Part shown: one piece after another, positions 5,697 to 31,745 of the stretch | Layout of the letters: every line of letters starts with the position of its first letter | Position numbering within the stretch: the stretch's first letter is position 1 | From: a virus | Virus record (IMG/VR): IMGVR_UViG_3300045988_168437 | Reading direction: 5' to 3' (one strand) | DNA: 64,000 bases | The notes under the pieces: model-generated | What the model saw: the letters and a program-made list of their open reading frames with translations, nothing else | What the model was told of the DNA's origin: nothing | Database searches by the model: none | Made by a program: the position numbers and the translations under genes

Positions 5697-5725
5697 TTGA
5701 CAATATAAAGTATATAAGCTACAAT
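5697..5725 (+). promoter_or_regulatory. sigma-70-type promoter
   Basis: TTGACA, 17 nt spacer, TACAAT. Confidence 0.65.
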
Positions 5726-6504: not shown

Positions 6505-6521
6505 GGGACTTTAAAAGTCCC
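6505..6521 (+). other. conserved hairpin 5 nt upstream of the HDV-like cleavage site
   Basis: GGGACTTTAAAAGTCCC. Confidence 0.7.
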
Positions 6522-6526
6522 TATAT

Positions 6527-6587
6527 GGTTCTAGTGATTGATAACCTTCTCGTGGTGGGACTGAATTCGACTAATTTCAATCAATCA
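6527..6587 (+). ncRNA. HDV-like self-cleaving ribozyme candidate A
   Basis: P1 GGUUCUA (6527-33) pairs with UGGGACU (6556-62), starting with a G1-U wobble. P2 UGAUUGAU/AUCAAUCA. P3-L3 CC-UUCUCGU-GG, then GA (P1.1), then GACUAA (J4/2 C candidate). Predicted cut 6526|6527. Confidence 0.75.
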
Positions 6588-6613
6588 AATTTTGGATAAA
6601 AGGGGATAAAAAA

Positions 6614-6928
6614 ATGAAAAAATTAAATTTAAGTGGTGGTTTTCAAGTTTGGGCAACAACTGACTATATTCCAAAAATTGGTCATATTTTGATAACTTTA
6701 GACAATGAACCTATTCCAAGCAATCCAAGTGCATGGGATAAAAATTGTCGTATTTATAAGATAGTTAACAACTTTGAAGACTATGAAATTGATGAAATTT
6801 TAGAAAATCAAGAAATTTCTTTAGATTTAATTTTACCTATTCGATTTTATGTAGACTTTAATAAAATTGATAGCAATAACTTTAAAATCATAGTCAATCG
6901 AGCTTTAAAACACTTAAACAGGGATTAA
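6614..6928 (+). CDS. hypothetical protein (104 aa)
   Basis: ORF track. AAAAGGGGATAAAAAA precedes the ATG. Confidence 0.7.
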   Translation: MKKLNLSGGFQVWATTDYIPKIGHILITLDNEPIPSNPSAWDKNCRIYKIVNNFEDYEIDEILENQEISLDLILPIRFYVDFNKIDSNNFKIIVNRALKHLNRD

Positions 6929-6936
6929 TAAATCCC
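6921..6936 (+). other. hairpin upstream of the HDV-like cleavage site (overlaps the stop codon)
   Basis: GGGATTAATAAATCCC. Confidence 0.6.
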
Positions 6937-6941
6937 TTCAT

Positions 6942-6994
6942 GGTAGCAAGAGTCAACCTCCCCGTGGTGCTACTGGATAATCAACTAATGACTC
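6942..6994 (+). ncRNA. HDV-like self-cleaving ribozyme candidate B (minimal, no P4)
   Basis: P1 GGUAGCA/UGCUACU (7 bp, G1-U wobble). P2 GAGUCA/UGACUC. P3-L3 CC-UCCCCGU-GG, GG after P1 (P1.1), and CUAA just before the P2 3' strand. Predicted cut 6941|6942. Confidence 0.8.
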
Positions 6995-7023
6995 AAATAT
7001 AATAATGTAAAGGGGATAAAAAG

Positions 7024-7362
7024 ATGTTAAAAGAAAAATTAAACCAAATTAAAGAAAATTCAGAAGGGATTAAACTATTTGTAATTGACGATATTTTAGA
7101 ATTCAACGAAAGTGATGACGAAATAACAGGTTATGTAAATGATGTATTAAATTATGGTTGTTCTAGTGGTTGTGTATCAAGTTTGATTTATTATAGTGAT
7201 ACAGACAAATTTTTTACAAAATATCATGATGAAATACTTGAAATGTTAGAAGACTTTAAAAATGAATGTGATATAAACTTTGAAATTAATTCAAATAACC
7301 TTGCATGGTTTGGATATGAAGAGACTTTAAGATGTTTAGCAAGTGAATTAGGTATTTGGTAA
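7024..7362 (+). CDS. acidic hypothetical protein (112 aa)
   Basis: ORF track with AAAGGGGATAAAAAG SD context. Confidence 0.7.
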   Translation: MLKEKLNQIKENSEGIKLFVIDDILEFNESDDEITGYVNDVLNYGCSSGCVSSLIYYSDTDKFFTKYHDEILEMLEDFKNECDINFEINSNNLAWFGYEETLRCLASELGIW

Positions 7363-7368
7363 AATGAA

Positions 7369-7385
7369 GGGACTTTTAAAGTCCC
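7369..7385 (+). other. conserved hairpin upstream of the HDV-like cleavage site
   Basis: GGGACTTTTAAAGTCCC. Confidence 0.7.
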
Positions 7386-7390
7386 TAAAT

Positions 7391-7451
7391 GATAGCAAGA
7401 GTTTACCTCCCCGTGGTGCTATTGGAAACAAGGGAACTTGGCTAAAAACTC
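7391..7451 (+). ncRNA. HDV-like self-cleaving ribozyme candidate C
   Basis: P1 GAUAGCA/UGCUAUU. P2 GAGUUU/AAACUC. CC-UCCCCGU-GG, then GG. P4 CAAG-GGAA-CUUG, then GCUAA. Predicted cut 7390|7391. Confidence 0.8.
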
Positions 7452-7479
7452 AAATTTTAGATAAAAGGGGATAAAAAAG

Positions 7480-8028
7480 ATGAAAAATTTAGTAAACTTA
7501 AACGATTTCGAAATAAACAGAGAGAGTGCAAAAATGATGCTTGAAAACAATAGTGAGTTTAGAATGACACTTGAAAATAGTGCTTTTGATAACGAATGTT
7601 TTTATATCAAAGAAGAATATTTAGATTTATTACCTACTGTAAAATATAATATAGATTTCTGTAAAACAAGTTTAAGCATAGGGAATAGTGATGTATACGA
7701 TTTACTTTATGATATAATTTCAGAGTCCGAAACATGGATAGCACACCTTGATGATGTTGAAATTCTTATGCAAAAGATGGAAACTTTCAGAAACATGATG
7801 GGAAATATTGCGGGATATAGTTATCAATATGAAAGACTTGAAAATCGAGCTACTAAACTAATAGAAGAGTTTTTGGAAATCCTTGAAAAACATCTTGAAA
7901 GCATAATTGATGGGATTAATGATGACTATATTGTAGATGATATTCTTAATTCGTGTTTTGATGAAATTTGGAGTGGAATATATATCAATCCTAAGACTTT
8001 TGAATTATACGAGTTAAAACATCTATAA
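7480..8028 (+). CDS. acidic hypothetical protein, paralogue of 9857-10411
   Basis: Shares LVNL(N/S)DFE(I/L)NRE(S/N)AKM(M/I)LENNSEFR and the C-terminal IYINPKT..LYELKHL with ORF 9857. Confidence 0.75.
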   Translation: MKNLVNLNDFEINRESAKMMLENNSEFRMTLENSAFDNECFYIKEEYLDLLPTVKYNIDFCKTSLSIGNSDVYDLLYDIISESETWIAHLDDVEILMQKMETFRNMMGNIAGYSYQYERLENRATKLIEEFLEILEKHLESIIDGINDDYIVDDILNSCFDEIWSGIYINPKTFELYELKHL

Positions 8029-8033
8029 AAATG

Positions 8034-8115
8034 AAGGCGAAATTCGAAACAAGGACCACGGTCCTTGTCTGTAAGTAATGAGTTGCTTATACTGACGAGA
8101 TAGCTCGAGCCTTAC
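8034..8115 (+). ncRNA. type II hammerhead ribozyme candidate HH1
   Basis: C-GAAAC; stem III AAGGACC/GGUCCUU; GUC cut site (8069|8070); stem I UGUAAG/CUUAUA; CUGACGAG. Loop I GAGUU pairs with downstream AGCUC. Closing helix AAGGC/GCCUU. Confidence 0.8.
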
Positions 8116-8141
8116 AAATAAATAAAAAGGGGATAAAAAAG

Positions 8142-8315
8142 ATGAAAAAAAGTGTAAAAATCATGGTAGTTTCAGGAATATTAGTAATAGGAATGATGGT
8201 ATTTCATAAACCATTAACCTTAAAAGCTATGGATTTAGTAGATTATTACGGAGAAAAAACTGGTAAAAATGTTGTAGAAATGATAGACTTTTTAAATGAA
8301 GTTTATTATCTATAA
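8142..8315 (+). CDS. small membrane protein (57 aa, below the ORF-track cutoff)
   Basis: ATG follows AAAAGGGGATAAAAAAG. Reads MKKSVKIMVVSGILVIGMMVFHK... (hydrophobic N-terminus). Flanked by HH1 and HDV-D. Confidence 0.55.
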   Translation: MKKSVKIMVVSGILVIGMMVFHKPLTLKAMDLVDYYGEKTGKNVVEMIDFLNEVYYL

Positions 8316-8321
8316 ATGATA

Positions 8322-8338
8322 GGGACTTTAGAAGTCCC
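8322..8338 (+). other. conserved hairpin upstream of the HDV-like cleavage site
   Basis: GGGACTTTAGAAGTCCC. Confidence 0.7.
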
Positions 8339-8342
8339 GTAT

Positions 8343-8403
8343 GGTTCTAGTTGTTGGTAGCCTTCCCGTGGCGGAACTGAATTCGACTAATTTTAACCAA
8401 CAA
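8343..8403 (+). ncRNA. HDV-like self-cleaving ribozyme candidate D
   Basis: P1 GGUUCU/GGAACU. P2 UUGUUGGU/ACCAACAA, which covaries with copy A. P3-L3 GCC-UUCCCGU-GGC, then GA, then GACUAA. Predicted cut 8342|8343. Confidence 0.75.
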
Positions 8404-8426
8404 AAATGATAGTAAAGGGGATAAAG

Positions 8427-8909
8427 ATGATGATAAAAAGATTACCAGAAACAAGTTTAATGACTATTAAGGCAATGATAAGAGAATATAGCGAAGTTGA
8501 GACAATAGTTATTAATGAAGTGGATAACTACTGGAATGATAGATGTAAGCAAATATATCAAGCTCCAGGGACTTCTTTAGAAGTCGATATATATCAAGGT
8601 ACTTGTAAAATCAATATCCATGATAGAGAATTGATGGTAAGAAGTTTATATGATGAAGCGAATAAATCAACAGATAGTGTATTTCTTGACTCTGAGCGTC
8701 ATTGTATACAAGGTATGTATGCTCATAGAAAAGATGATATGTTTGAAATTTATTTAAAAGCATACATTAGATGTATTGAAGAATATATCTCTAATATGCA
8801 GCATGTATTTGACAAATATTCTCTAGCAACTTGGATACAAAATCATCCTGACAACTTCAACAAGTGGGCAGTAGATGAAGACACTTGCGAATTTTTCAGA
8901 ATGATATAA
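8427..8909 (+). CDS. hypothetical protein
   Basis: Start moved to the ATGATG at 8427, after AAAGGGGATAAAG. The track start at 8406 lies just after the ribozyme and lacks an SD. Confidence 0.7.
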   Translation: MMIKRLPETSLMTIKAMIREYSEVETIVINEVDNYWNDRCKQIYQAPGTSLEVDIYQGTCKINIHDRELMVRSLYDEANKSTDSVFLDSERHCIQGMYAHRKDDMFEIYLKAYIRCIEEYISNMQHVFDKYSLATWIQNHPDNFNKWAVDEDTCEFFRMI

Positions 8910-8914
8910 ATGAT

Positions 8915-8931
8915 GGGACTTTTAAAGTCCC
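8915..8931 (+). other. conserved hairpin upstream of the HDV-like cleavage site
   Basis: GGGACTTTTAAAGTCCC. Confidence 0.7.
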
Positions 8932-8936
8932 TATAT

Positions 8937-8999
8937 GGTAGTAATTGGTTCGCCTCCACGTGGCACTACTGGAAACGAGTTTACTCGGCTAAGAGTCAA
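8937..8999 (+). ncRNA. HDV-like self-cleaving ribozyme candidate E
   Basis: P1 GGUAGU/ACUACU. P3-L3 GCC-UCCACGU-GGC, then GG. P4 CGAG-UUUA-CUCG, then GCUAAG. P2 UUGGUU/AGUCAA (two G-U pairs). Predicted cut 8936|8937. Confidence 0.7.
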
Positions 9000-9018
9000 A
9001 AAAGAAGGGATAAAAAAG

Positions 9019-9339
9019 ATGATAAAAAAGATTGAAGAAAAAATTAAAGAATTGGGTTTCGTTGTAGGTTGTTACAACGATAAAATTGATGACATTTTAA
9101 CTCCAGGAGCAGCTCGTAAAGTTTGTGGGTTACTAGAAGAAGAATACACAGACGAATTGATGCGAATTAGAGGTAAACTATATAAAGTCTGTATAGCAAC
9201 TGTTGACGATGAAAAAGATATCAATATATATCATGCATTAGACTATTATAGACAATACGGAGAAGAACATCTGGATAATGACTATGAAGAAAAAATGATG
9301 ACATTAAAGGAATATAGAGCATTGAAAAAGATGGTATAA
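9019..9339 (+). CDS. hypothetical protein (106 aa)
   Basis: Start moved to the ATG at 9019, after AGAAGGGATAAAAAAG. The track start at 8935 lies inside the ribozyme. Confidence 0.7.
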   Translation: MIKKIEEKIKELGFVVGCYNDKIDDILTPGAARKVCGLLEEEYTDELMRIRGKLYKVCIATVDDEKDINIYHALDYYRQYGEEHLDNDYEEKMMTLKEYRALKKMV

Positions 9340-9340
9340 A

Positions 9341-9430
9341 ACAAATTCGAAACAAAGGACCATGGAGTAATTCATGGTCCTTTGTCTGTAAGCAATAGGC
9401 TACTTATACTGACGAGATAGCCTGTTGCTA
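9341..9430 (+). ncRNA. type II hammerhead ribozyme candidate HH2
   Basis: UUCGAAAC; stem III AAAGGACCAUG/CAUGGUCCUUU; GUC (cut 9386|9387); stem I UGUAAG/CUUAUA; CUGACGAG. Loop I CAAUAGGCUA pairs with downstream UAGCCUGUUG. Confidence 0.8.
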
Positions 9431-9456
9431 AAAATGATGATAAAAAGGGGATAAGA

Positions 9457-9744
9457 ATGATGAGAGAACATGCAATATATAAAGATTATATCAGATATAT
9501 AGGAGATGGATTTAATTTTTCAGAATTATATTCATATGAAGATGGTAAAGAATTACATTTCAATAAATTTATGGATTATTGGGAAGACTCTAAAACTGGT
9601 AGATTTTATCGTTGGAAAAATTCAAAAGATGATAAAATTATAAAGGAATGTCATGAAGAAACACTTGATTATTTTGGATTTAAATCTAGTCGACTAAATG
9701 ATGATAAAGAATCTTTAAAAGATGAAGAATATCTACCATTCTAA
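9457..9744 (+). CDS. hypothetical protein (95 aa)
   Basis: ORF track with AAAAGGGGATAAGA SD context. Confidence 0.7.
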   Translation: MMREHAIYKDYIRYIGDGFNFSELYSYEDGKELHFNKFMDYWEDSKTGRFYRWKNSKDDKIIKECHEETLDYFGFKSSRLNDDKESLKDEEYLPF

Positions 9745-9746
9745 TG

Positions 9747-9829
9747 AAGGTAATAAATTCGAAACAAGGACTAAGGTCCTTGTCTGTAAATGATAGGCTC
9801 TTTATACTGACGAGATAGCCTATTACCTT
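9747..9829 (+). ncRNA. type II hammerhead ribozyme candidate HH3
   Basis: Closing helix AAGGUAAU/AUUACCUU; UUCGAAAC; stem III AAGGAC/GUCCUU; GUC (cut 9784|9785); stem I UGUAAA/UUUAUA; CUGACGAG. Loop I AUAGGCU pairs with downstream AGCCUAU. Confidence 0.85.
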
Positions 9830-9856
9830 TACAATAGAAATGAAAGGGGATTAAAG

Positions 9857-10411
9857 ATGATGATGGGAAAATTAGTAAACTTAAGTGACTTTGAATTAAA
9901 TAGAGAAAATGCAAAAATGATACTTGAAAACAATAGTGAGTTTAGACAAGTTTTAATTGATGAATTATTTGAAAATGAAATTGATTATTATTGTTCAGAA
10001 ATATTAGAAAAAATACCTGAAATAAGTTGGAATATCAATTATTCAGATGTTAGAATATGGACTAAGTTTGGTTCTAATGTTATTAACATAATTGAAGGTA
10101 TATTTGATATTGACGAATATCTTACAGAAAACTGTAATATCATAATCAGTAAATTAAAAGTTTATCATAAATATCTGACTACTTGTTGTCAATATGATAA
10201 TAGATGGGATAGATTAATTGCTAGAACTGAAAAATTAGTTGACGATTTATTGAATGAACTTGAGCAAATGATAGGAACATATTTAGAAGCGATTAACGAT
10301 GATGATGACGAAATAATCGAATATTGTATAAGTTCAATGGAAGGGATTATATGTTCTACAATTTATATAAATCCTAAAACATTAGATTTATACGAATTAA
10401 AGCATTTATAA
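9857..10411 (+). CDS. acidic hypothetical protein, paralogue of 7480-8028
   Basis: See the 7480 entry. AAAGGGGATTAAAG SD context. Confidence 0.75.
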   Translation: MMMGKLVNLSDFELNRENAKMILENNSEFRQVLIDELFENEIDYYCSEILEKIPEISWNINYSDVRIWTKFGSNVINIIEGIFDIDEYLTENCNIIISKLKVYHKYLTTCCQYDNRWDRLIARTEKLVDDLLNELEQMIGTYLEAINDDDDEIIEYCISSMEGIICSTIYINPKTLDLYELKHL

Positions 10412-10413
10412 TA

Positions 10414-10442
10414 TTGACAGTTTTACACAAAAGTGATACTAT
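10414..10442 (+). promoter_or_regulatory. internal sigma-70-type promoter
   Basis: TTGACA, 17 nt spacer, TACTAT. Confidence 0.6.
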
Positions 10443-10448
10443 TAAATC

Positions 10449-10530
10449 AAGGGGAGTAATCCCCTTCCTAATGCAGTAGCTAAAAGCTAGAGGTCGCAAC
10501 TCCTCATAAAACATATGCAGAGCGGGAAAA
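10449..10530 (+). ncRNA. unclassified structured leader (three hairpins) in a slot otherwise occupied by ribozymes
   Basis: AAGGGGA-GUAA-UCCCCUU, UAGCU-AAA-AGCUA, and GAGG-UCGCAACU-CCUC. I cannot match it to a known core. Confidence 0.3.
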
Positions 10531-10545
10531 TGAAAGGGGATAAAG

Positions 10546-10992
10546 ATGATGAAAATAAAAGAATTATATGAAAACATTAGTAACTGTTTAGATTGGATTA
10601 AAATCAACAATAGTGACTTAAAAGACATATTTGAAGGTGCTAAAGCATTAAGAAGAGGAATTCAAGTCTTAGAATATGATAAAGCAATGATAGGTAAAAT
10701 TGATGATAACTATTTTATTTCAGATTTTATTATGAATATTCTTAAAAAGAATCTTCCAGAGTATCAATTAAGTTTAGGCATAATTGACGATGTTTTAGAA
10801 GAACTAGACATAGATGATGATACTTTAGAAGAATTAGATGAAAGCGAATTTGAAAATCATGTTATAATCAAAAATACTTTCGTAGATGTAAAAGAAGCAA
10901 TTTCTTTTGATGATTACTGGGATTTACCAGATTTTGATAGTCTTTTAAAAATGTTTGAATTTGCAAAAGAAGAAATTGGTTACTTATTATAA
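10546..10992 (+). CDS. very acidic hypothetical protein (148 aa)
   Basis: ORF track with AAAGGGGATAAAG SD context. Confidence 0.7.
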   Translation: MMKIKELYENISNCLDWIKINNSDLKDIFEGAKALRRGIQVLEYDKAMIGKIDDNYFISDFIMNILKKNLPEYQLSLGIIDDVLEELDIDDDTLEELDESEFENHVIIKNTFVDVKEAISFDDYWDLPDFDSLLKMFEFAKEEIGYLL

Positions 10993-11082
10993 GTTTAAAT
11001 TCGAAACAGGTAGTACAGGAAATCCTGTATTGCTTGTCTGTAAGTAATAGGCTACTTATACTGACGAGATAGCCTGAACTTA
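10990..11082 (+). ncRNA. type II hammerhead ribozyme candidate HH4
   Basis: Closing helix UAAGUU/AACUUA; UUCGAAAC; 12-bp stem III AGGUAGUACAGG/CCUGUAUUGCUU; GUC (cut 11038|11039); UGUAAG/CUUAUA; CUGACGAG. Loop I AGGCUA pairs with UAGCCU. Confidence 0.8.
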
Positions 11083-11110
11083 TAAATATGATGATAAAAA
11101 GGGGATAAAG

Positions 11111-11557
11111 ATGATGGCAAAGAGAATTGATATAGTAAGATGTAAAATGGTAAAGGAAAGTTCAGTTAAGTATGAAAAAAGAGTGATAACATCACCTTTT
11201 GATGGCTATATAATAGTAAAAGATTTTCTTGAAGACTTAGACAGAGAACAAGTGATGATGCTTTGTTTAAATAGTAAAAATGAACCTACAAACTTATCTG
11301 TTATAAGTATGGGGACTGTAAATAGTTCATTGATACATCCAAGAGAAGTATTTAAAATAGCAATACTTTCAAATGCTAGTAAAATCATGTTGGCACATAA
11401 TCATCCATCAGGAAATCCAAGTCCTTCTCATGAAGATGAATTAATGACAAAGAGAATCAAAGATTGTGGAGATATGATGGGAATTCAATTATTGGACCAT
11501 ATAATTGTAGGCGATAACACTTATTATAGTTTTAAAGAAAATAATTCAATATTATAA
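11111..11557 (+). CDS. radC: RadC-like JAB/MPN-domain protein
   Basis: HNHPSGNPSPSHED (JAMM-like H-x-H-P-S-G...S-x-x-D motif typical of RadC/DUF2466). 148 aa. Confidence 0.8.
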   Translation: MMAKRIDIVRCKMVKESSVKYEKRVITSPFDGYIIVKDFLEDLDREQVMMLCLNSKNEPTNLSVISMGTVNSSLIHPREVFKIAILSNASKIMLAHNHPSGNPSPSHEDELMTKRIKDCGDMMGIQLLDHIIVGDNTYYSFKENNSIL

Positions 11558-11565
11558 TATTTTAC

Positions 11566-11594
11566 TTGTTATCTTTATACAAAAATGATATAAT
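11566..11594 (+). promoter_or_regulatory. internal sigma-70-type promoter immediately upstream of HDV-like ribozyme F
   Basis: TTGTTA, 17 nt spacer, TATAAT. The predicted TSS is near 11601. Confidence 0.55.
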
Positions 11595-11610
11595 AAGGAT
11601 AGCAAGATAT

Positions 11611-11674
11611 GACGGCAAAGGTTCTTCCTCCCCGTGGTGTCGTCGGGAACTCCTAACAGGTGCTAAATAGAACC
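11611..11674 (+). ncRNA. HDV-like self-cleaving ribozyme candidate F
   Basis: P1 GACGGCA/UGUCGUC. P2 GGUUCU/AGAACC. CC-UCCCCGU-GG, then GG. P4 CUCCU-AAC-AGGUG, then GCUAA. Predicted cut 11610|11611. Confidence 0.75.
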
Positions 11675-11695
11675 AAAAATGAAAGGGGAATAAAG

Positions 11696-12082
11696 ATGAT
11701 GAAAGAATTAAAAAGACTAAATCAAATTGATTTAACAGAAAATCAAACAAAAAAACTCTTAAATAATGATATTTTTAAGGAAAGTGTCATAGACAAACTT
11801 GCTAGTTATTTTAATCATTGTATTTATGAAAAATATGTACTTAATCATATAATTCATTTTGAATGTGAATACAATACAAAAACAAATTTCTTTAAATATA
11901 AAATAGTTGAAGAGAATGATAAAAATCAAGAAGTTTTGGATAACTTAAAAAACGATATAAATAACTATTATCAATATTTGCAAGATAAAAATAGCCTTAA
12001 AGAGAATATAAAAGTCATCGTAAAGAGATTAGATGATAATTATTATGTTGATAATGATTTTAATGTTTATAAAGTTATTTAG
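11696..12082 (+). CDS. hypothetical protein
   Basis: Start moved to the ATGATG at 11696, after AAAGGGGAATAAAG. The track start at 11660 lies inside the ribozyme. Confidence 0.7.
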   Translation: MMKELKRLNQIDLTENQTKKLLNNDIFKESVIDKLASYFNHCIYEKYVLNHIIHFECEYNTKTNFFKYKIVEENDKNQEVLDNLKNDINNYYQYLQDKNSLKENIKVIVKRLDDNYYVDNDFNVYKVI

Positions 12083-12091
12083 GAGGTAAAA

Positions 12092-12358
12092 ATGATGAAA
12101 ACTTTAAATCAAATTGAATGGAAAAATCTGTTAAAAAATATGGATACAGAAGAAGGCAGACAAGAGTTTATAAGCAGAGTACCATCTGGAATATATGGTG
12201 GTAAAAATGAAGACGGAGAAGAAGTTATAACAGTTGTATCTCAAGGATTTGGGATGACAATAAAGACTAAACATCATGAGAAACCAAACTGGTGGGAATG
12301 TGTTGATTATGATGAACTTGGCTGCATGGAATGTGTAACATATGAAAGAGCAGATTAA
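12092..12358 (+). CDS. hypothetical protein (88 aa)
   Basis: ORF track with AGGAGGT SD. Confidence 0.7.
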   Translation: MMKTLNQIEWKNLLKNMDTEEGRQEFISRVPSGIYGGKNEDGEEVITVVSQGFGMTIKTKHHEKPNWWECVDYDELGCMECVTYERAD

Positions 12359-12361
12359 TTA

Positions 12362-12454
12362 GAAGGATAAATTCGAAACAGGTAGAATGAGGCAACTCAT
12401 TTTACTTGTCTATAAGGTTAAGCTACTTATACTGACGAGATAGCTTAATCCTTC
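12362..12454 (+). ncRNA. type II hammerhead ribozyme candidate HH5
   Basis: Closing helix GAAGGAU/AUCCUUC; UUCGAAAC; 12-bp stem III; GUC (cut 12410|12411); stem I UAUAAG/CUUAUA; CUGACGAG. Loop I UUAAGCUA pairs with UAGCUUAA, which covaries relative to the other copies. Confidence 0.85.
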
Positions 12455-12476
12455 AAAATGAAAGGGGATAAAAAAG

Positions 12477-13004
12477 ATGATGAAAAGAGAAAATGTTGTG
12501 AAATTTTTAGATTTATTACGTTCTGATGAAGTTAATGACGAAATAAAAGATTTATATATTGAACTATTAGAAGGACATATTCAAGATGCTCCAGGAACTC
12601 AAATTGAAATTATATTAGACTTAGACGGAGAAATTGATGAAAGATACTTTGTAGGAAATTCAACTAGAATGGATGTATATGAAGGCGATGCAATAGTTGT
12701 AGCAAGTATCAGATATGATGCAAACGTTACTTATGAAGACATGGGAGAATTATCAGATGCTTTAGATGAATCTGAATATGAAAAATTCGTAGAATGGATA
12801 TTTGCATACGAAGATATATCAGAAGATGATGAAAAAGAATATTTCGAAGAAAACTTTACATGGGAAAATTTTTCAGAATTTAATCCTGATAGATTTAAAG
12901 AGCTAGAAGAAGAATCTTGGCAAGCAAATGTTGATTATTACGGATATGAAGAAATTGGGCAAAAATTATCTGAATGTATACAACAATTAGAAACTTTATT
13001 ATAG
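12477..13004 (+). CDS. extremely acidic hypothetical protein (175 aa); DNA-mimic-like composition
   Basis: ORF track with long D/E-rich runs. No motif recognised. Confidence 0.7.
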   Translation: MMKRENVVKFLDLLRSDEVNDEIKDLYIELLEGHIQDAPGTQIEIILDLDGEIDERYFVGNSTRMDVYEGDAIVVASIRYDANVTYEDMGELSDALDESEYEKFVEWIFAYEDISEDDEKEYFEENFTWENFSEFNPDRFKELEEESWQANVDYYGYEEIGQKLSECIQQLETLL

Positions 13005-13020
13005 GGGCAGCAATTGCTCC

Positions 13021-13080
13021 TACTTTAAACCTACCAATGATGGTCCAAAGTCCATATGGAAAAAGGTGATGGGAGTAAAT
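13021..13080 (+). ncRNA. twister ribozyme candidate (type P1) Tw1
   Basis: UACU-U-U|AA; P2 ACCU/AGGU; ACC-AAU-G; P4 AUGG/CCAU with loop UCCAAAGU; A-rich strand; GAU-GGG-AGUA. Same block order as canonical twister. Predicted cut 13026|13027. Preceded by hairpin 13006-13020. Confidence 0.7.
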
Positions 13081-13141
13081 AAAGGCGAAGCTACTAAAAT
13101 ACTCGTCTATATATAAGAGTAGCAATTAAAAGGGGGTAAAA

Positions 13142-13456
13142 ATGAAGGTATATTTAGGGAATGCTTTTAGTTTACAAATGTTAGACACAACAAAGACTAC
13201 AGATATAAAAGTAACACCAGTTGATGCATCAGTTGTAGCAAGTTCAGATTTTACATCAGTTATAGGTCATCCAGATACAGCTGCAGTAGTTTCAAACATC
13301 TTAGGAAAAGACGTAGCTTGTAATAGAGTTTCTGTTAGTTTAAGTAAAGGTGACATTTTATATGTAGCACAAGTTGTTGGTGGCAGACTTCCTGCTGGAG
13401 CTACCACTCTACCAGACGGATTTAGTTTAGTATTTTTAAAAGTTGTCATTCTATAA
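13142..13456 (+). CDS. DUF1874 / STIV-B116-like protein (family assignment from memory)
   Basis: 104 aa. MKVYLGNAFSLQML...SVIGHPDTAAVVSNILG...ILYVAQ resembles that family. Confidence 0.45.
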   Translation: MKVYLGNAFSLQMLDTTKTTDIKVTPVDASVVASSDFTSVIGHPDTAAVVSNILGKDVACNRVSVSLSKGDILYVAQVVGGRLPAGATTLPDGFSLVFLKVVIL

Positions 13457-13521
13457 AAAGGTAGAAGGCTTATAGGAGTGTCTCAAACTCCTACATTATG
13501 TAAATGAAGGGAGAATTAAAA

Positions 13522-13659
13522 ATGAAAGTTAAAAAAGAAATTACAATTGAAGAAGAATTTGAAATACATATGAAAAGCATGGAAGGGCATGTTTGCTATG
13601 GTTGCTCAGGTTGTAAGTTTGCTTACTATGGAGTTTGCCCATATGTTCAAGAGGGTTAA
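13522..13659 (+). CDS. small Cys-rich protein (45 aa, below the ORF-track cutoff)
   Basis: ATG follows GAAGGGAG. Reads MKVKKEITIEEEFEIHMKSMEGHVCYGCSGCKFAYYGVCPYVQEG. Confidence 0.4.
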   Translation: MKVKKEITIEEEFEIHMKSMEGHVCYGCSGCKFAYYGVCPYVQEG

Positions 13660-13665
13660 TCCCTC

Positions 13666-13730
13666 TACTTTAAACTCACTTGACTAAGTCAAAAGGTCCA
13701 AAGTCCTTGAAAAGAGTGATGGGAGTAAAT
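13666..13730 (+). ncRNA. twister ribozyme candidate (type P1, with P3 insert) Tw2
   Basis: Same conserved blocks as Tw1. P2 ACUC/GAGU and P4 AAGG/CCUU both covary. An extra hairpin UGAC-UAA-GUCA sits at the optional-P3 position. Predicted cut 13671|13672. Preceded by hairpin GAGGG-UUAAU-CCCUC. Confidence 0.7.
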
Positions 13731-13747
13731 GAAAGGGGTAAAATGAT

Positions 13748-14023
13748 ATGAATAATTCTATTAAAAGATTAAAAGAAAAATTAATTGGAAAAGAATTCAA
13801 AGAAGAAGATTATAATAAAGAGTTAAATAATCTTGTAAAAGAATTTCATTTAGAGGCAAATACTTGTGATTTTGATTTTGACAGATTATATCACATTGGA
13901 TATGAAGAAAAAGAAAATTGGGATGATGAATATGTTTGTAGTATACAAGTTAATTATATTCCTGTATATGATGAAAATGGATATCATGACTTTGATATCA
14001 TAAAAATATTTGATGTGTTTTAA
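13748..14023 (+). CDS. hypothetical protein (91 aa)
   Basis: ORF track with AAAGGGGTAAAATG context. Confidence 0.65.
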   Translation: MNNSIKRLKEKLIGKEFKEEDYNKELNNLVKEFHLEANTCDFDFDRLYHIGYEEKENWDDEYVCSIQVNYIPVYDENGYHDFDIIKIFDVF

Positions 14024-14053
14024 TATAATTAAATCATATAGGGAGGTATGAAA

Positions 14054-14221
14054 ATGAGAACTTACTTAGCAGATTATGAAGACGATAATTTTGAAACAAT
14101 AATAGCGAATACAGATAATGAAGCTTACTTTGAAGCTCTTGACCATGAAGAAGAACATGGGACTTTATATAATCTTTTTGAAATTGATGATGACTACAAT
14201 AAAATAAGAGAAGTTAAATAG
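14054..14221 (+). CDS. small acidic protein (55 aa, below the ORF-track cutoff)
   Basis: ATG sits 7 nt after GGGAGGT. Reads MRTYLADYEDDNFETIIANTDNEAYFEALDHEEEHG... and its stop abuts HH6. Confidence 0.5.
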   Translation: MRTYLADYEDDNFETIIANTDNEAYFEALDHEEEHGTLYNLFEIDDDYNKIREVK

Positions 14222-14296
14222 AAGGCAAAATTCGAAACCGTGGTGGTCCACGGTCTGTAAGCAATAGGCTACTTATACTGACGAGATAGCCTTGCC
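14221..14296 (+). ncRNA. type II hammerhead ribozyme candidate HH6
   Basis: Closing helix GGCAA/UUGCC; UUCGAAAC; stem III CGUGG/CCACG; GUC (cut 14255|14256); UGUAAG/CUUAUA; CUGACGAG. Loop I AGGCUA pairs with UAGCCU. Confidence 0.8.
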
Positions 14297-30306: not shown

Positions 30307-30328
30307 TTATTTTTTTTAGAAATTCACT

Positions 30329-30445: not shown

Positions 30446-31561
30446 ATGATACTTGCAAAGAAAGTTAGATTGCGCCCAAGTGAACTACAAGAAGAAAAAT
30501 TATGGAAATCAGTAGGGACTGCAAGATTTATTTATAATTGGACTTTAAATAGGCAAGAAGAAAATTATAAAGGTGGTGGTAAATTCATACCTGATAGTGT
30601 TCTTAGAAAAGAAATAACTCAATTAAAGAAAACTGACTTAAGTTGGTTAAATGAAGTATCTAATAATGTTGCAAAACAAGCTGTAAAAGATGCCTGTGAT
30701 TCATATAAAAGATTCTTTAAAGGATTGTCAGGTAAACCTAGATTTAAAAGTAGGAAAAGAAGTAAGAAGTCTTTTTATCATGACAATGTTAAACTTAAAG
30801 TTAAAGATAATAAATTAGTTAAGATTGAAAAAGTTGGGTGGATAAAAACCAATGAACAATTACCTATTGGAGTTAAATATACCAATCCGAGAATTAGTTA
30901 TGATAATAAGTATTGGTATTTATCTGTAGGAATTGAACAGGAAGGAATCCAAGAAGAATTAACAGAAATATCATTAGGAATAGATTTAGGGTTGAAAAAC
31001 TTAGCAATTTGTTCCGATGGTGCAATATATAAAAATATAAATAAAACTTGTACAGTCAAAAAAATCGAAAAGAAACTAAAAAGATTACAAAGACAAATAA
31101 GTAGAAAGTATGAAAAAAATAAAAAAGGAAAGGAGTATGTCAAAACTAAAAATATTATAAAACTTGAAAAGCAGATACAACAAGTACATAGAAGGTTGAC
31201 TAACATTAGAAATAACTATCTTCATCAAACTACGACAAGTATAGTGAAAACCAAACCATACAGAGTTGTAATAGAAGATTTAAGTGTTTCTAATATGATG
31301 AAAAATAAACATTTATCTGATGCTATAAGGAAACAAGGATTCTATGAATTCAGAAGACAACTTGAATACAAGTGTAAATTTAGAGGAATTAAGTTAGTCG
31401 TAGCAGATAGATTTTATCCATCGTCAAAAATTTGTAGCCAATGTGGAGAGATTAAGAAGGATTTAAAGCTATCCGATAGAGTATACAAGTGTGATTGTGG
31501 GCTTGTGATTGATAGAGATTTAAATGCAAGTATTAATCTTTCTAAATATAAATTAGCATAA
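30446..31561 (+). CDS. tnpB: IS200/IS605-family TnpB (OrfB) RNA-guided nuclease, with no adjacent tnpA
   Basis: N-terminus KVRLRPSELQEEKLWKSVGTARFIYNW. RuvC D (GIDLGLKN), E (VVIEDLS) and D (DRDLNASINL). Zinc ribbon CSQCG...CDCG. Confidence 0.9.
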   Translation: MILAKKVRLRPSELQEEKLWKSVGTARFIYNWTLNRQEENYKGGGKFIPDSVLRKEITQLKKTDLSWLNEVSNNVAKQAVKDACDSYKRFFKGLSGKPRFKSRKRSKKSFYHDNVKLKVKDNKLVKIEKVGWIKTNEQLPIGVKYTNPRISYDNKYWYLSVGIEQEGIQEELTEISLGIDLGLKNLAICSDGAIYKNINKTCTVKKIEKKLKRLQRQISRKYEKNKKGKEYVKTKNIIKLEKQIQQVHRRLTNIRNNYLHQTTTSIVKTKPYRVVIEDLSVSNMMKNKHLSDAIRKQGFYEFRRQLEYKCKFRGIKLVVADRFYPSSKICSQCGEIKKDLKLSDRVYKCDCGLVIDRDLNASINLSKYKLA

Positions 31562-31745
31562 TATCATTAATAAGATAATGCTAATATGTAGGATGTGTTG
31601 TATCCGAATTTACGCCCTTGGAGAGTTATATCAAACGAAAGTAGGTTGTTATTTATAATTTCCAAAATCGAATTCGTAGAACAGGGAATTAAACAAGATT
31701 TATAGATATTTATAGATTTTTGGCAACAGAGATTTTCTCCTCTTT
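31500..31745 (+). ncRNA. probable omega-RNA / right-end region of the TnpB element (boundaries not resolved)
   Basis: Positional inference: omega-RNAs overlap the tnpB 3' end and the RE. The 31562-31745 segment is noncoding and noticeably less AT-rich. Confidence 0.35.

What the first reader, a model, noticed from the sequence alone, without database searches (positions are those of the whole stretch)
11566..11700. An HDV-like ribozyme sits about 10 nt downstream of a promoter start site, so 5'-end remodelling seems a likelier role than cistron separation
TTGTTA-N17-TATAAT (11566-11594) predicts a TSS near 11601. Ribozyme F would cut at 11610|11611.

The only thing removed is a triphosphorylated leader of about 10 nt. 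The mRNA would then begin with a 5'-OH embedded in a very stable double pseudoknot.

This suggests the ribozymes may serve to generate 5'-OH ends that resist RppH, RNase J and RNase E, or that evade 5'-end sensors, not only to separate cistrons.
Basis: inference. Interest (0 to 1): 0.7.

Follow-up and report, generated by a model that had tools for sequence, protein, structure and literature searches.

The report
Phage HDV-like ribozyme behind internal promoter
A self-cleaving HDV-like RNA really does sit about 10 bases after a credible phage promoter, but it is one of 15 ribozymes that cut up one long phage transcript, and its "promoter" DNA also folds, as RNA, into the same protective hairpin found in front of its five sister ribozymes, so it most likely both separates genes and trims promoter-born transcripts.

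Summary
It belongs to a 14-member promoter family in this window, and all 14 sites are intergenic. The 64 nt from 11611 to 11674 have every invariant nucleotide and helix of the phage HDV-like ("theta"/minimal drz) family. A covariance model built only from unrelated phages hits it at 33.4 bits (E about 1e-6). Relatives keep it 64-65/65 identical while the adjacent radC gene has diverged by 7%.

- F is one of 6 HDV-like, 6 type II hammerhead and 3 twister elements that fill nearly every intergenic gap of a terminator-free operon from 6.3 to 14.8 kb. Read-through RNA must therefore also be cut at F.
- In read-through RNA the promoter segment folds into a 14-bp hairpin (-13.7 kcal/mol) that ends 4 nt before the cut. 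This is the same layout as the hairpins before ribozymes A-E.
- With ribozymes in nearly every gap, always next to the ribosome-binding site, an internal promoter almost inevitably lands just upstream of one.
- The glmS ribozyme precedent shows that a 5'-OH end does not protect RNA from RNase J1.

Most likely F does both jobs and gives one identical, structured 5' end. It is a new member of a known kind.

The parts
11111..11557 (+). radC (RadC-like JAB domain) gene, the upstream cistron. Its stop codon lies 8 nt before the -35 hexamer.
   Evidence: Pfam RadC 6.9e-44. NCBIfam RadC family.
11566..11571 (+). -35 hexamer TTGTTA. In read-through RNA it forms part of the 5' arm of the hairpin.
   Evidence: Invariant in 7 relatives. 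Replaced by the consensus TTGACA in L174.
11586..11594 (+). Extended -10 element, TGaTATAAT.
   Evidence: Invariant in all relatives, including L174. Member of the promoter family.
11601..11601 (+). Predicted transcription start (A, +/-1 nt), 7 nt after the -10. It lies inside the 3' arm of the hairpin.
   Evidence: Inference from standard sigma-70 geometry applied to the sequence. Not measured.
11565..11606 (+). RNA hairpin that forms only in read-through transcripts. The arms are 11565-11578 (CUUGUUAUCUUUAU) and 11593-11606 (AUAAGGAUAGCAAG), giving 14 pairs including 2 G.U. It ends 4 nt before the cut.
   Evidence: Minimum-free-energy fold of 11558-11700, z = -2.5. Free energy -13.7 kcal/mol, with 0.2% of shuffles as stable. 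Relatives: -14.0, -14.0, -12.4 and -8.2 kcal/mol, but lost in L174 at -3.7.
11610..11611 (+). Predicted self-cleavage site, U-1 | G+1.
   Evidence: The AU|G context is shared by all six copies. Supported by family alignments. The alternative 11609|11610 is not excluded.
11611..11674 (+). HDV-like ribozyme F. Helices and joining regions:
- P1: 11611-11617 with 11638-11644 (first pair G1-C).
- P2: 11620-11625 with 11669-11674.
- P3: 11627-11628 with 11636-11637, plus U11626.U11638 as an alternative to the 7th P1 pair A11617-U11638.
- L3: 11629-11635, UCCCCGU.
- P1.1: GG at 11645-11646 with CC in L3.
- P4: 11650-11654 with 11658-11662, with one mismatch.
- J4/2: starts with the candidate catalytic C11663.
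   Evidence: 64-65 of 65 positions are identical in relatives whose radC DNA is 92.6% identical.
11685..11698 (+). Shine-Dalgarno GGGGA (11685-11689) and the ATG start codon (11696) of the downstream ORF.
   Evidence: The same AAAGGGGAUAAAnAUG module follows nearly every ribozyme in the operon.
11696..12082 (+). Downstream 128-aa ORF with no known family.
   Evidence: Its only homologue in 5.8 billion proteins is a 99% identical copy.

Best explanation
F is an active HDV-like self-cleaving ribozyme. It is one unit of a phage early operon (about 6.3-14.8 kb) in which nearly every intergenic gap has the layout [3' hairpin]-[ribozyme]-[Shine-Dalgarno]-[ATG].

Its gap also holds an internal promoter of the phage's own sigma-70-type family. 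That promoter is written into the same 42 bp that fold, in read-through RNA, into the 3' hairpin of the radC message. Two kinds of precursor are therefore cut at 11610|11611.
- **Read-through RNA from the 5.7-5.9 kb promoters.** It is split into a radC mRNA ending in hairpin+AUAU>p and a downstream mRNA.
- **RNA started at about 11601.** It cannot form the hairpin and loses a pppN(9-10)>p leader.

Both routes give the same mature mRNA. [quoted passage not shown] The likely benefit is a uniform, structured 5' end that does not depend on transcript origin. This is insulation, as in the synthetic RiboJ part, with protection coming from structure and not from the 5'-OH itself. The upstream message also gains a defined, hairpin-protected 3' end.

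**Shown here:** the sequence features, family membership, conservation, the layout shared with A-E, and the absence of terminators.

**Inferred:** cleavage activity, promoter activity, the start site, and any effect on stability or translation.
For: **Ribozyme**
- An independent covariance model hits F at 33.4 bits, E 9e-7, and otherwise only the five sister copies.
- In the 54-sequence family alignment 96.8% of cells are paired, against 60% in shuffles, and all 7 P1 pairs covary.
- G-C as the first P1 pair occurs in 14 of 53 family members.
- All invariant nucleotides are present in F.
- F is 64-65/65 identical in relatives with 92.6% radC DNA identity. By my arithmetic about 5 changes would be expected at that divergence.

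**Promoter**
- The hexamers and TG are invariant, while 6 of the other 39 upstream positions vary.
- L174 carries the module behind a different gene, with a perfect 12/12 promoter plus TG.
- The module (promoter, leader, F and ribosome-binding site) occurs in three gene contexts.

**Read-through role**
- No + strand terminator lies between 6262 and 14785, apart from one weak match at 14143.
- The 14-bp hairpin ends 4 nt before the cut, as in A-E.
- The G-to-A changes at 11597 and 11602 in relatives turn G.U pairs into A-U pairs.
- Across the family, 24 of 29 phage HDV-like ribozymes not flagged as tRNA-adjacent have a stable hairpin ending within 8 nt of the cut. Control windows give 14 of 29. 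Mean free energy is -12.6 against -6.6 kcal/mol.

**Context and precedents**
- 15 ribozyme elements lie in the operon.
- Hammerhead arrays flank genes in prophages, and the 5' end of a halovirus HF1/HF2 transcript maps to a hammerhead cut site (PMC3088659).
- RiboJ is the synthetic equivalent (PMC6206723).
Against: - No transcript data exist. Promoter use, cleavage and the start site are all unmeasured.
- F has a U.U at the outer P3 position, unique among the 53 family members, and a weak P4. Its Rfam scores are far below threshold.
- Conservation of the promoter hexamers is not significant on its own. My estimate is about 0.14 for zero of 6 variable sites falling in 14 of 53 positions.
- The hairpin is weakened in L111 and its near-identical copies (a C.A mismatch, -8.2 kcal/mol). 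It is lost in L174 (-3.7), so it is not needed everywhere.
- No HDV-like ribozyme with this core in IMG/VR has a perfect TATAAT 4-24 nt before the cut. Apart from F's own lineage, nearly all metagenome and genome hits are unrelated or chance matches. Two single cases (L131, L176) were not followed up. The arrangement is therefore not shown to be a recurrent design.
Confidence: 0.55

Rival explanations
1. F exists mainly to remodel the 5' end of transcripts started at the 11566 promoter. It swaps a 5'-PPP for a 5'-OH buried in a pseudoknot, so that the RNA escapes RppH, RNase J, RNase E or 5'-end sensors. Cistron separation is secondary.
For: - The promoter is credible and travels with the ribozyme as one module.
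- In L174 the hairpin is gone but the promoter and ribozyme are kept.
- A second internal promoter, at 10414, is likewise followed by a ribozyme (a twister).
- The 5' end of a halovirus HF1/HF2 transcript maps to a hammerhead cut site (PMC3088659).
Against: - No terminator isolates this promoter, so read-through RNA is cut as well.
- The hairpin 4 nt before the cut serves only read-through RNA.
- Eleven of the other 12 + strand promoters of the family have no detected ribozyme downstream. The phage therefore does not generally need 5'-OH ends.
- The 5'-OH product of the glmS ribozyme is the substrate of RNase J1 (PMC10810187).
- The closest RadC relatives come from Clostridia-type hosts, which use RNase J.
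- No bacterial 5'-PPP sensor is implicated by anything here.
Confidence: 0.2
2. The promoter-like sequence is not used as a promoter. It is simply an AT-rich version of the 3' hairpin that precedes every HDV-like ribozyme here. F works purely as a cistron separator, like A-E.
For: - The hairpin is significant and correctly placed.
- Promoter-like hexamers are common in DNA of 27% G+C. The simple scan found 52 sites against 38.7 expected in shuffles.
- Hexamer conservation is not significant on its own.
Against: - The site matches the phage promoter family in its spacer as well as its hexamers. The leave-one-out score is 15.9 bits, reached by only 15 of 127,942 positions. All 14 family sites are intergenic.
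- L174 lost the hairpin yet gained a perfect consensus promoter.
- The -35 half in L174 matches the 10414 promoter in 20 of 21 positions, which points to exchange between working promoter cassettes.
Confidence: 0.18
3. F is a decayed, inactive copy of the ribozyme, and nothing is cut at 11610|11611.
For: - U.U mismatch in P3 and a weak P4 with a mismatch.
- UG in place of GG before CUAA.
- Rfam score well below the gathering threshold.
Against: - All invariant nucleotides are kept, including the J4/2 C.
- F is 64-65/65 identical across relatives whose flanks diverged by 7%. The single change falls at the known variable L3 position.
- A P4 loop change in L144 leaves the helices intact.
- The same deviations (G1-C, GGGAAC, UGCUAA) occur in an unrelated family member, L048.
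- P4-less copies of the family also exist, for example copy B in this window.
Confidence: 0.05

Closest known systems
Theta / minimal HDV-like ribozymes of gut Caudoviricetes (Kienbeck et al. 2024, PMC10879173)
   Same: - Same fold and the same conserved nucleotides: NCC-UCCNCGU-GGN, GG(N)AAC, short P4, GCUAA.
- A model built only from tRNA-adjacent examples finds F at 33.4 bits.
- Found in a phage-like element.
   Different: - No tRNA is present anywhere in the window.
- F belongs to the 'non-tRNA-associated' group, whose function that paper leaves open.
- F has a U.U in P3 and is preceded by a hairpin that overlaps a promoter.
Arrays of hammerhead ribozymes flanking genes in prophages (Perreault et al. 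2011, PMC3088659)
   Same: - Several self-cleaving ribozymes in successive intergenic gaps of one long phage transcript.
- The proposed role is processing into single-gene mRNAs.
- The window's six hammerheads are the type II form with a 2-bp stem II and a pseudoknot between loop I and the 3' tail, as described there.
   Different: - Three ribozyme classes are mixed here (6 HDV-like, 6 hammerhead, 3 twister) in 8 kb.
- F also has a promoter in its gap.
HHphage hammerhead of haloviruses HF1/HF2 (discussed in PMC3088659)
   Same: - The ribozyme lies a few nucleotides upstream of the first start codon of an early transcript.
- The mapped 5' end of that transcript coincides with the cut site, so the ribozyme defines the mRNA 5' end.
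   Different: - Different ribozyme class and an archaeal virus.
- No overlapping hairpin or read-through context is described.
RiboJ and similar synthetic ribozyme insulators (PMC6206723)
   Same: - The order is promoter, then ribozyme, then ribosome-binding site.
- Cleavage removes the promoter-specific leader, so every transcript has the same structured 5' end.
- RiboJ raises mRNA and protein levels.
   Different: - RiboJ is an engineered hammerhead plus a hairpin.
- F is natural and HDV-like, and it also receives read-through RNA.
glmS ribozyme in Firmicute 5' UTRs (PMC10810187; Collins 2007 as cited there)
   Same: A self-cleaving ribozyme in a 5' UTR that leaves a 5'-OH on the coding fragment.
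   Different: - glmS needs a cofactor.
- Its cleavage destabilises the mRNA through RNase J1.
HDV-like ribozymes at the 5' ends of R2 and L1Tc retrotransposon RNAs (reviewed in PMC6765202)
   Same: An HDV-like ribozyme releases and defines the 5' end of a downstream coding RNA from a longer co-transcript, and it stays on that RNA.
   Different: These are eukaryotic and tied to retrotransposition, with proposed IRES-like translation.

Membership tests
HDV-like (delta-like) self-cleaving ribozymes | Nested double pseudoknot in the order P1-P2-P3-L3-P3'-P1'-P1.1-P4-J4/2-P2' | tested here: met
   - P1 has 6-7 bp, P2 6 bp and P3 2 bp (plus a U.U).
- P1.1 is GG with CC of L3, and P4 has 4 bp plus a mismatch.
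- P1, P3 and P4 covary across 53 family members.
- P2 was checked by eye in F, in copies C and E, and in three of the six seed sequences.
HDV-like (delta-like) self-cleaving ribozymes | Catalytic cytosine at the first position of J4/2, plus the conserved L3 and the G's after P1 | tested here: met
   F has C11663 in GCUAA, L3 UCCCCGU and GGG at 11645-11647. These match every invariant column of the 43-sequence alignment.
HDV-like (delta-like) self-cleaving ribozymes | G at +1 closing P1 with a standard pair (G.U in HDV itself) | tested here: met
   - G11611 pairs with C11644.
- Across the family the first pair is G.U in 26, G-C in 14, A-U in 6 and U.G in 5.
- The classic G.U wobble is therefore not present in F, but G-C is common in this family.
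HDV-like (delta-like) self-cleaving ribozymes | Score above the Rfam gathering threshold (RF00094 or RF02682) | tested here: not met
   - RF00094 scores 22.3 bits against a threshold of 50. RF02682 gives no hit for F.
- This is a curated cut-off, not a structural feature. A purpose-built model gives E about 9e-7.
HDV-like (delta-like) self-cleaving ribozymes | Site-specific self-cleavage giving a 2',3'-cyclic phosphate and a 5'-OH | not testable with these tools
   Needs in vitro transcription or end-specific RNA-seq.
Theta ribozymes (tRNA-associated subgroup) | Cleavage site within +/-5 nt of a tRNA 3' end | tested here: not met
   ARAGORN finds no tRNA in the window. The sequence upstream of F is radC plus a promoter/hairpin.
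Theta ribozymes (sequence motif) | Minimal delta-like ribozyme motif with short J1/2 and L4 and fixed core nucleotides | tested here: met
   A model built from six tRNA-adjacent examples hits F. The paper's exact descriptor was not run.
Sigma-70/SigA-type promoter | -35 and -10 hexamers 17 +/-1 nt apart, with an optional TG at -15/-14 | tested here: met
   TTGTTA-17-TGaTATAAT, 10/12 matches plus TG. Member of a 14-site intergenic family.
Sigma-70/SigA-type promoter | Conservation of the hexamers relative to the surrounding sequence | tested here: inconclusive
   None of the 14 motif positions varies, against 6 of the other 39. My estimate is p about 0.14. L174 supports function, with a different -35 and spacer that match the consensus perfectly.
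Sigma-70/SigA-type promoter | Transcription initiates there | not testable with these tools
   Needs mapping of 5'-PPP ends.
Ribozyme 5'-UTR insulator (works like RiboJ) | Promoter, then self-cleaving ribozyme, then ribosome-binding site, with the ribozyme remnant kept on the mRNA | tested here: met
   The layout is -10 end at 11594, cut at 11610|11611, ribozyme to 11674, Shine-Dalgarno at 11685 and ATG at 11696. The functional effect was not tested.

The most novel reading that the evidence does not exclude
One 42-bp segment (11565-11606) carries two overlapping functions that selection maintains together. As DNA it is an internal promoter. As read-through RNA it is the 3'-protective and fold-insulating hairpin of the radC message.

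Ribozyme F makes both transcript classes converge on one identical 5'-OH, pseudoknot-capped mRNA. It would then be a natural RiboJ-type insulator.

By extension, the 15-ribozyme operon would give every early mRNA a structured 5' cap and a 3' hairpin. These could make the phage's messages resistant to 5'-to-3' decay, possibly including decay by the phage's own beta-CASP RNase-like protein (56579-58036), while host mRNAs are degraded.
Probability: 0.25. Interest if true: 0.65.

Novelty: new member of a known kind. Interest (0 to 1): 0.45.

Why it matters
The role of bacterial and phage self-cleaving ribozymes outside glmS and tRNA processing is still open (PMC6765202, PMC10879173). This locus offers a natural experiment. 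The same ribozyme receives a promoter-born precursor, where only the 5' end changes, and a read-through precursor, where two cistrons are separated. The two proposed roles can therefore be told apart with a handful of point mutants: a catalytic C-to-U change, -10 knock-outs, and disruption and restoration of the hairpin arms.

The operon as a whole holds three ribozyme classes that are used interchangeably in one fixed layout of hairpin, ribozyme and ribosome-binding site. This argues that what is selected is the pair of RNA ends produced, not the particular catalytic motif.

Tried and rejected
**Searches that found nothing useful**
- Rfam at gathering thresholds finds only RAGATH-18 in the window.
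- Megablast of 9-15 kb against the phage and plasmid collections gave nothing useful.
- A protein-pattern search for ORF11696 in IMG/VR gave no relatives.
- ORF11696 has only one homologue cluster, at 99% identity, so it is useless as an anchor.
- An exact look-up of the window's ORF11696 product found nothing.

**Comparisons that carried no information**
- RadC relatives in IMG/VR are at most about 60% identical and not syntenic.
- The first relatives fetched (L031, L032) were 100% identical across the F gap.
- The 70%-identity RadC loci (L117-L119) show no obvious ribozyme after radC on inspection.

**Technical dead ends**
- MAFFT alignment of 43 family members put the P1 5' strands out of register. 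I seeded the model with six sequences of equal J1/2 length and let Infernal align the rest.
- RNAfold cannot score the pseudoknot. The isolated ribozyme gave z = +0.6, which says nothing about the native fold.
- Rfam gave no hammerhead hit for the one GAAAC...CUGACGAG repeat scanned with relaxed thresholds, nor for any copy in the whole-window scan. I classified the repeats by hand against Perreault 2011.

**Ideas rejected**
- A non-circular hammerhead permutation (PMC10085705) was rejected, because the block order G-S-C is the classic type II.
- A recurrent 'TATAAT just before an HDV-like ribozyme' design is not supported. There are 0 hits in IMG/VR. Nearly all metagenome and genome hits outside F's lineage are eukaryotic retrotransposon-type copies with chance TATAAT, or are not valid ribozymes.

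**Papers not held:** Collins 2007 and Roth 2014.
Full report
**1. What is at the coordinates**

The sequence reads ...TAA(radC stop, 11557)-tattttac-TTGTTA-tctttatacaaaaaTGa-TATAAT-aaggatAgcaagatat|GACGGC....
- A TG two bases before the -10 makes it an extended -10 promoter.
- The A that lies 7 nt after the -10 is 11601.

The 64 nt from G11611 can be drawn as an HDV-like double pseudoknot:
- P1 is GACGGC(A) with (U)GUCGUC.
- P2 is GGUUCU with AGAACC.
- P3 is CC with GG.
- L3 is UCCCCGU.
- GGG follows P1 and supplies P1.1.
- P4 is short, CUCCU with AGGUG.
- J4/2 is CUAAAU.

A GGGGA ribosome-binding site follows at 11685, and the ATG is at 11696.

**2. Is the ribozyme real?**

Rfam alone is not convincing. 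HDV_ribozyme scores 22.3 bits against a gathering score of 50, and at gathering thresholds the window shows only RAGATH-18.

The same core (CCUCCNCGUGG...GGNAAC...GCUAA) occurs four times in the window and in many IMG/VR phage contigs. Many of those phage copies sit directly after tRNA genes. These are the 'theta' ribozymes of Kienbeck et al. (PMC10879173).

I built a covariance model from six such tRNA-adjacent ribozymes from unrelated contigs. In the 64-kb window it finds six sites and nothing else credible:

| Site | Bits | E-value |
|---|---|---|
| 8935-9003 | 52.2 | 7.2e-12 |
| 7389-7456 | 42.0 | 4.2e-09 |
| 11608-11677 (F) | 33.4 | 9.2e-07 |
| 6939-7006 | 21.9 | 0.0012 |
| 6525-6585 | 15.8 | 0.055 |
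| 8341-8401 | 13.5 | 0.22 |

The family alignment has 54 sequences.
- 96.8% of cells form standard pairs, against 60% after shuffling.
- All seven P1 pairs covary.
- This alignment was fitted to the model, which favours the structure. Even so, the slid controls give only 36-54%.

F keeps every invariant nucleotide of the family. Its first P1 pair is G-C and not the G.U wobble of HDV itself, but 14 of 53 family members have G-C. An unrelated member, L048, shares the G1-C, the GGGAAC and the UGCUAA.

F's peculiarities are a U.U at the outer P3 position and a weak P4.

All six copies in the window have AU|G at the predicted cut. This supports 11610|11611. The model's own alignment would also allow a cut one base earlier.

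**3. Conservation**

Contigs with 99-100% identical copies carry no information. Relatives whose radC DNA is 92.6% identical do (L111-L116).
- The ribozyme is 64-65/65 identical. The one change is at the L3 position that varies across the family. About five changes would be expected at that divergence.
- The 53 nt between the radC stop and the cut have six variable columns. None falls in the -35, the TG or the -10.
- The ribozyme is therefore clearly under purifying selection. The promoter evidence from this comparison alone is only suggestive.

**4. Is the promoter real?**

Three further lines of evidence bear on this.
- **Strict scan.** Requiring TG, at least 10/12 matches and a -10 of at least 5/6 gives only four + strand sites in 64 kb, three of them intergenic.
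- **Promoter family.** The F site resembles other intergenic sites in its spacer as well as its hexamers. A weight matrix finds 14 sites above 14 bits, and all 14 lie outside ORFs. Seven of these were not used to build the matrix. With F left out of the matrix, the F site still scores 15.9 bits, a level reached by only 15 of 127,942 positions.
- **A recombinant relative.** A metagenome scan for TATAAT-N20-40-HDV core recovered two more relatives. In L174 the module sits behind a different gene, a homologue of ORF 9457, and in front of a homologue of ORF 12092. Its promoter there is TTGACA-gttttacacaaaaaTGa-TATAAT, a perfect consensus. Its -35 and adjacent spacer match the window's other internal promoter at 10414 in 20 of 21 positions.

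The unit of promoter, leader, ribozyme and ribosome-binding site thus occurs in three gene contexts. I put the chance that it is a working promoter at roughly 0.75-0.8.

**5. The surroundings change the interpretation**

The window is part of a phage-like element of about 136 kb and about 27% G+C. It encodes a Pol III alpha subunit, a DnaB-like helicase, NrdD, a RecJ-like protein, an actin-like ParM-type protein and at least one tyrosine recombinase.

Between 6.3 and 14.4 kb, small + strand ORFs are separated by gaps of roughly 90-180 nt. Almost every one of these gaps holds a self-cleaving ribozyme followed by AAAGGGGAUAAAnAUG.
- **Six HDV-like ribozymes.** These are the six model hits listed above.
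- **Six copies of GAAAC-[stem III]-GUC|UGUAAG...CUUAUA-CUGACGAG-AUAGCC**. These have the type II hammerhead order. They have a 2-bp stem II, a pseudoknot between loop I and the 3' tail, and a covarying outer helix. Perreault et al. described exactly this form (PMC3088659). Rfam does not detect them.
- **Three twister-P1-like elements.** They score 34-47 bits, below threshold but with E down to 4e-9.

No + strand terminator-like site lies between 6262 and 14785, except one weak match at 14143. Strong promoters lie at 5697, 5797 and 5892. RNA reading through radC is therefore expected, and F would cut it.

**6. The hairpin**

Ribozymes A-E are each preceded by a hairpin of the form GGGACUUUUAAAGUCCC. 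These hairpins have free energies of -8 to -12.6 kcal/mol and end 4-5 nt before G1. I first thought F lacked such a hairpin.

Folding 11558-11700 shows that it does not.
- CUUGUUAUCUUUAU (11565-11578, containing the -35) pairs with AUAAGGAUAGCAAG (11593-11606, from the end of the -10 through the predicted start site).
- This makes a 14-bp stem of -13.7 kcal/mol. Only 0.2% of shuffles are as stable.
- It ends 4 nt before the cut, like the others.

In relatives:
- The hairpin is -14.0, -14.0 and -12.4 kcal/mol in three of them.
- The G-to-A changes at 11597 and 11602 convert G.U pairs into A-U pairs.
- In the L111 group a C.A mismatch lowers it to -8.2.
- In the recombinant L174 it is lost, at -3.7.

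Across the family, 24 of 29 phage HDV-like ribozymes not flagged as tRNA-adjacent have a stable hairpin ending within 8 nt of the cut. Control windows 120 nt further upstream give 14 of 29. Mean free energy is -12.6 against -6.6 kcal/mol. The tRNA-linked members have the tRNA itself in that place.

A structured 3' end on the upstream product is therefore a general feature of this family. F has it too, written over its promoter. RNA started at 11601 lacks the 5' arm and cannot form the hairpin.

**7. Mechanism I consider most likely**

F serves two precursors and yields one product.
- Read-through RNA is split into a radC mRNA ending in hairpin+AUAU>p and the downstream mRNA.
- Promoter-born RNA loses a leader of about 10 nt that carries the triphosphate.

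This is the logic of the synthetic RiboJ insulator, which gives identical 5' ends regardless of promoter and raises mRNA and protein levels (PMC6206723).

Nearly every gap has a ribozyme next to the ribosome-binding site. An internal promoter is therefore almost bound to sit just upstream of one. The second internal promoter, at 10414, sits in the same way before a twister, and in that gap there is a separate hairpin.

Eleven of the other 12 + strand promoters of the family, most of them outside the operon, have no detected ribozyme after them. A 5'-OH end is therefore not a general requirement of this phage.

**8.

- *'Only a 10-nt leader is removed'* ignores read-through RNA and the hairpin.
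- *The 5'-OH is not a shield against RNase J.* The 5'-OH product of the glmS ribozyme is degraded by RNase J1 (PMC10810187). The nearest RadC relatives are from Clostridioides, Romboutsia and Faecalibacillus. This suggests a Firmicute host that uses RNase J, although the host was not determined.
- *Any protection would come from structure.* That is, from the paired 5' nucleotide and the compact fold.
- *Nothing here bears on '5'-end sensors'.*

**9. Novelty**

Several things are already known:
- Phage HDV-like ribozymes, including non-tRNA ones of unknown function (PMC10879173).
- Ribozyme arrays that flank genes in prophages.
- A virus transcript whose 5' end maps to a hammerhead cut (PMC3088659).
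- The suggestion that such ribozymes process polycistronic RNA (PMC6765202).

F is a new member of this kind. Its new aspects are all inferred:
- The overlap of promoter and hairpin.
- The portable unit of promoter, ribozyme and ribosome-binding site.
- The density of the array, 15 ribozymes of three classes in one fixed layout.

The arrangement is not shown to recur. IMG/VR has no HDV-like ribozyme of this core with TATAAT 4-24 nt before the cut. Outside F's lineage, nearly all metagenome and genome hits are unrelated.

**10. Verdict**

- Interest is moderate, because the locus is a clean natural test bed for separating the '5'-end' role of ribozymes from the 'cistron separation' role.

Noticed in passing
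window 6525-14292 (+ strand): Fifteen self-cleaving-ribozyme elements lie in one terminator-free operon, in almost every gap between small ORFs.
- HDV-like, cut before G at 6527, about 6942, 7391, 8343, 8937 and 11611.
- Type II hammerheads, cut after 8069, 9386, 9784, 11038, 12410 and 14255.
- Twister-P1-like at 10465-10528, 13022-13076 and 13667-13726.

Each is followed by AAAGGGGAUAAAnAUG.
   Followed up: partly
window 8040-8106, 9343-9423, 9755-9821, 10997-11075, 12369-12446, 14228-14292: Six hammerheads of the type II order (GAAAC, stem III, GUC|, stem I, CUGACGAG).
- They have a 2-bp stem II and a pseudoknot between loop I (AGGCUA) and the 3' tail (UAGCCU).
- A covarying outer helix joins the flanks, for example AAGGUAAU with AUUACCUU.
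- No Rfam hammerhead model reports them, even at E up to 10.
   Followed up: partly
window 6505-6521, 6921-6936, 7370-7386, 8322-8338, 8915-8931: A conserved hairpin of the form GGGAC-UUUUAAA-GUCCC ends 4-5 nt before the cut site of each HDV-like ribozyme A-E. It probably forms the protected 3' end of the upstream mRNA and keeps upstream sequence from interfering with ribozyme folding. Three of the five score as terminator-like on the minus strand.
   Followed up: partly
window 10414-10442 and 10451-10464: A second internal promoter (TTGACA-17-TGaTACTAT) sits just before a hairpin (GGGGAguaaUCCCC) and a twister ribozyme. The promoter, hairpin and ribozyme core are nearly identical in relatives, apart from one substitution and a 3-nt insertion after the predicted start in two of them.
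   Followed up: partly
window + strand 10414, 11566, 14848, 16716, 19606, 21686, 25803, 28091, 30328, 31760, 33888, 41468, 56170; - strand 2542: A phage promoter family with a conserved spacer, TTGACA-(g/t)(t/a)yTtAyAyAAAAa(TG)n-TATAAT. All 14 sites are intergenic. From 16 to 34 kb many genes appear to have their own copy.
   Followed up: partly
window 30446-31561 and 31615-31688: A TnpB (OrfB_IS605 plus Cas12f1-like TNB domains) is followed 54 nt later by a full RAGATH-18 RNA (67.6 bits). This matches the IS607 TnpB / RAGATH-18-derived guide RNA systems described in PMC11061315. A family promoter at 30328 precedes the gene.
   Followed up: no
window 56579-58036: A phage-encoded beta-CASP metallo-beta-lactamase RNase-like protein (Beta-Casp, RMMBL and Lactamase_B domains). 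Its best NCBIfam matches are Cas14/aCPSF1-type, below the cut-offs. An RNase of this fold in an element whose early mRNAs carry ribozyme-structured 5' ends may be connected, but nothing here shows that it is.
   Followed up: no
L111/L113/L114 versus window 11696-12082; L174: Relatives differ by whole-gene insertions and deletions, with junctions in the ribozyme/ribosome-binding-site modules.
- ORF 11696 is absent in L111, L113 and L114, so F directly precedes the ORF 12092 homologue.
- In L174, F follows the ORF 9457 homologue.

The repeated ...GGGGAUAAAGAUGAUGAAA junctions may act as recombination points for gene cassettes.
   Followed up: partly
window 11598-11607 versus 7391-7400: The 10-nt string GATAGCAAGA in F's leader (the 3' arm of the hairpin) is identical to the first 10 nt of ribozyme C (P1 5' strand, J1/2 and the start of P2). 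It could be chance or a trace of recombination between ribozyme modules. It remains unexplained.
   Followed up: no
window 11650-11654 versus 11685-11689: In nested-only minimum-free-energy folds, the P4 5' strand CUCCU pairs with the Shine-Dalgarno GGGGA. The CCUCC of P3/L3 also resembles an anti-Shine-Dalgarno sequence. Misfolded or uncleaved ribozyme might mask the ribosome-binding site. RNAfold cannot weigh this against the pseudoknotted fold.
   Followed up: no
L125, L127, L131, L134, L136, L140, L141 and others (metagenome contigs JAABU*/JAABV*): Many copies of one HDV-like ribozyme (GGCCUGC...GCAGGCU GGGAAC...) have identical downstream sequence and unrelated AT-rich upstream sequence. 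This is the signature of 5' ends of non-LTR retrotransposons in a eukaryotic genome. It is unrelated to the window.
   Followed up: no
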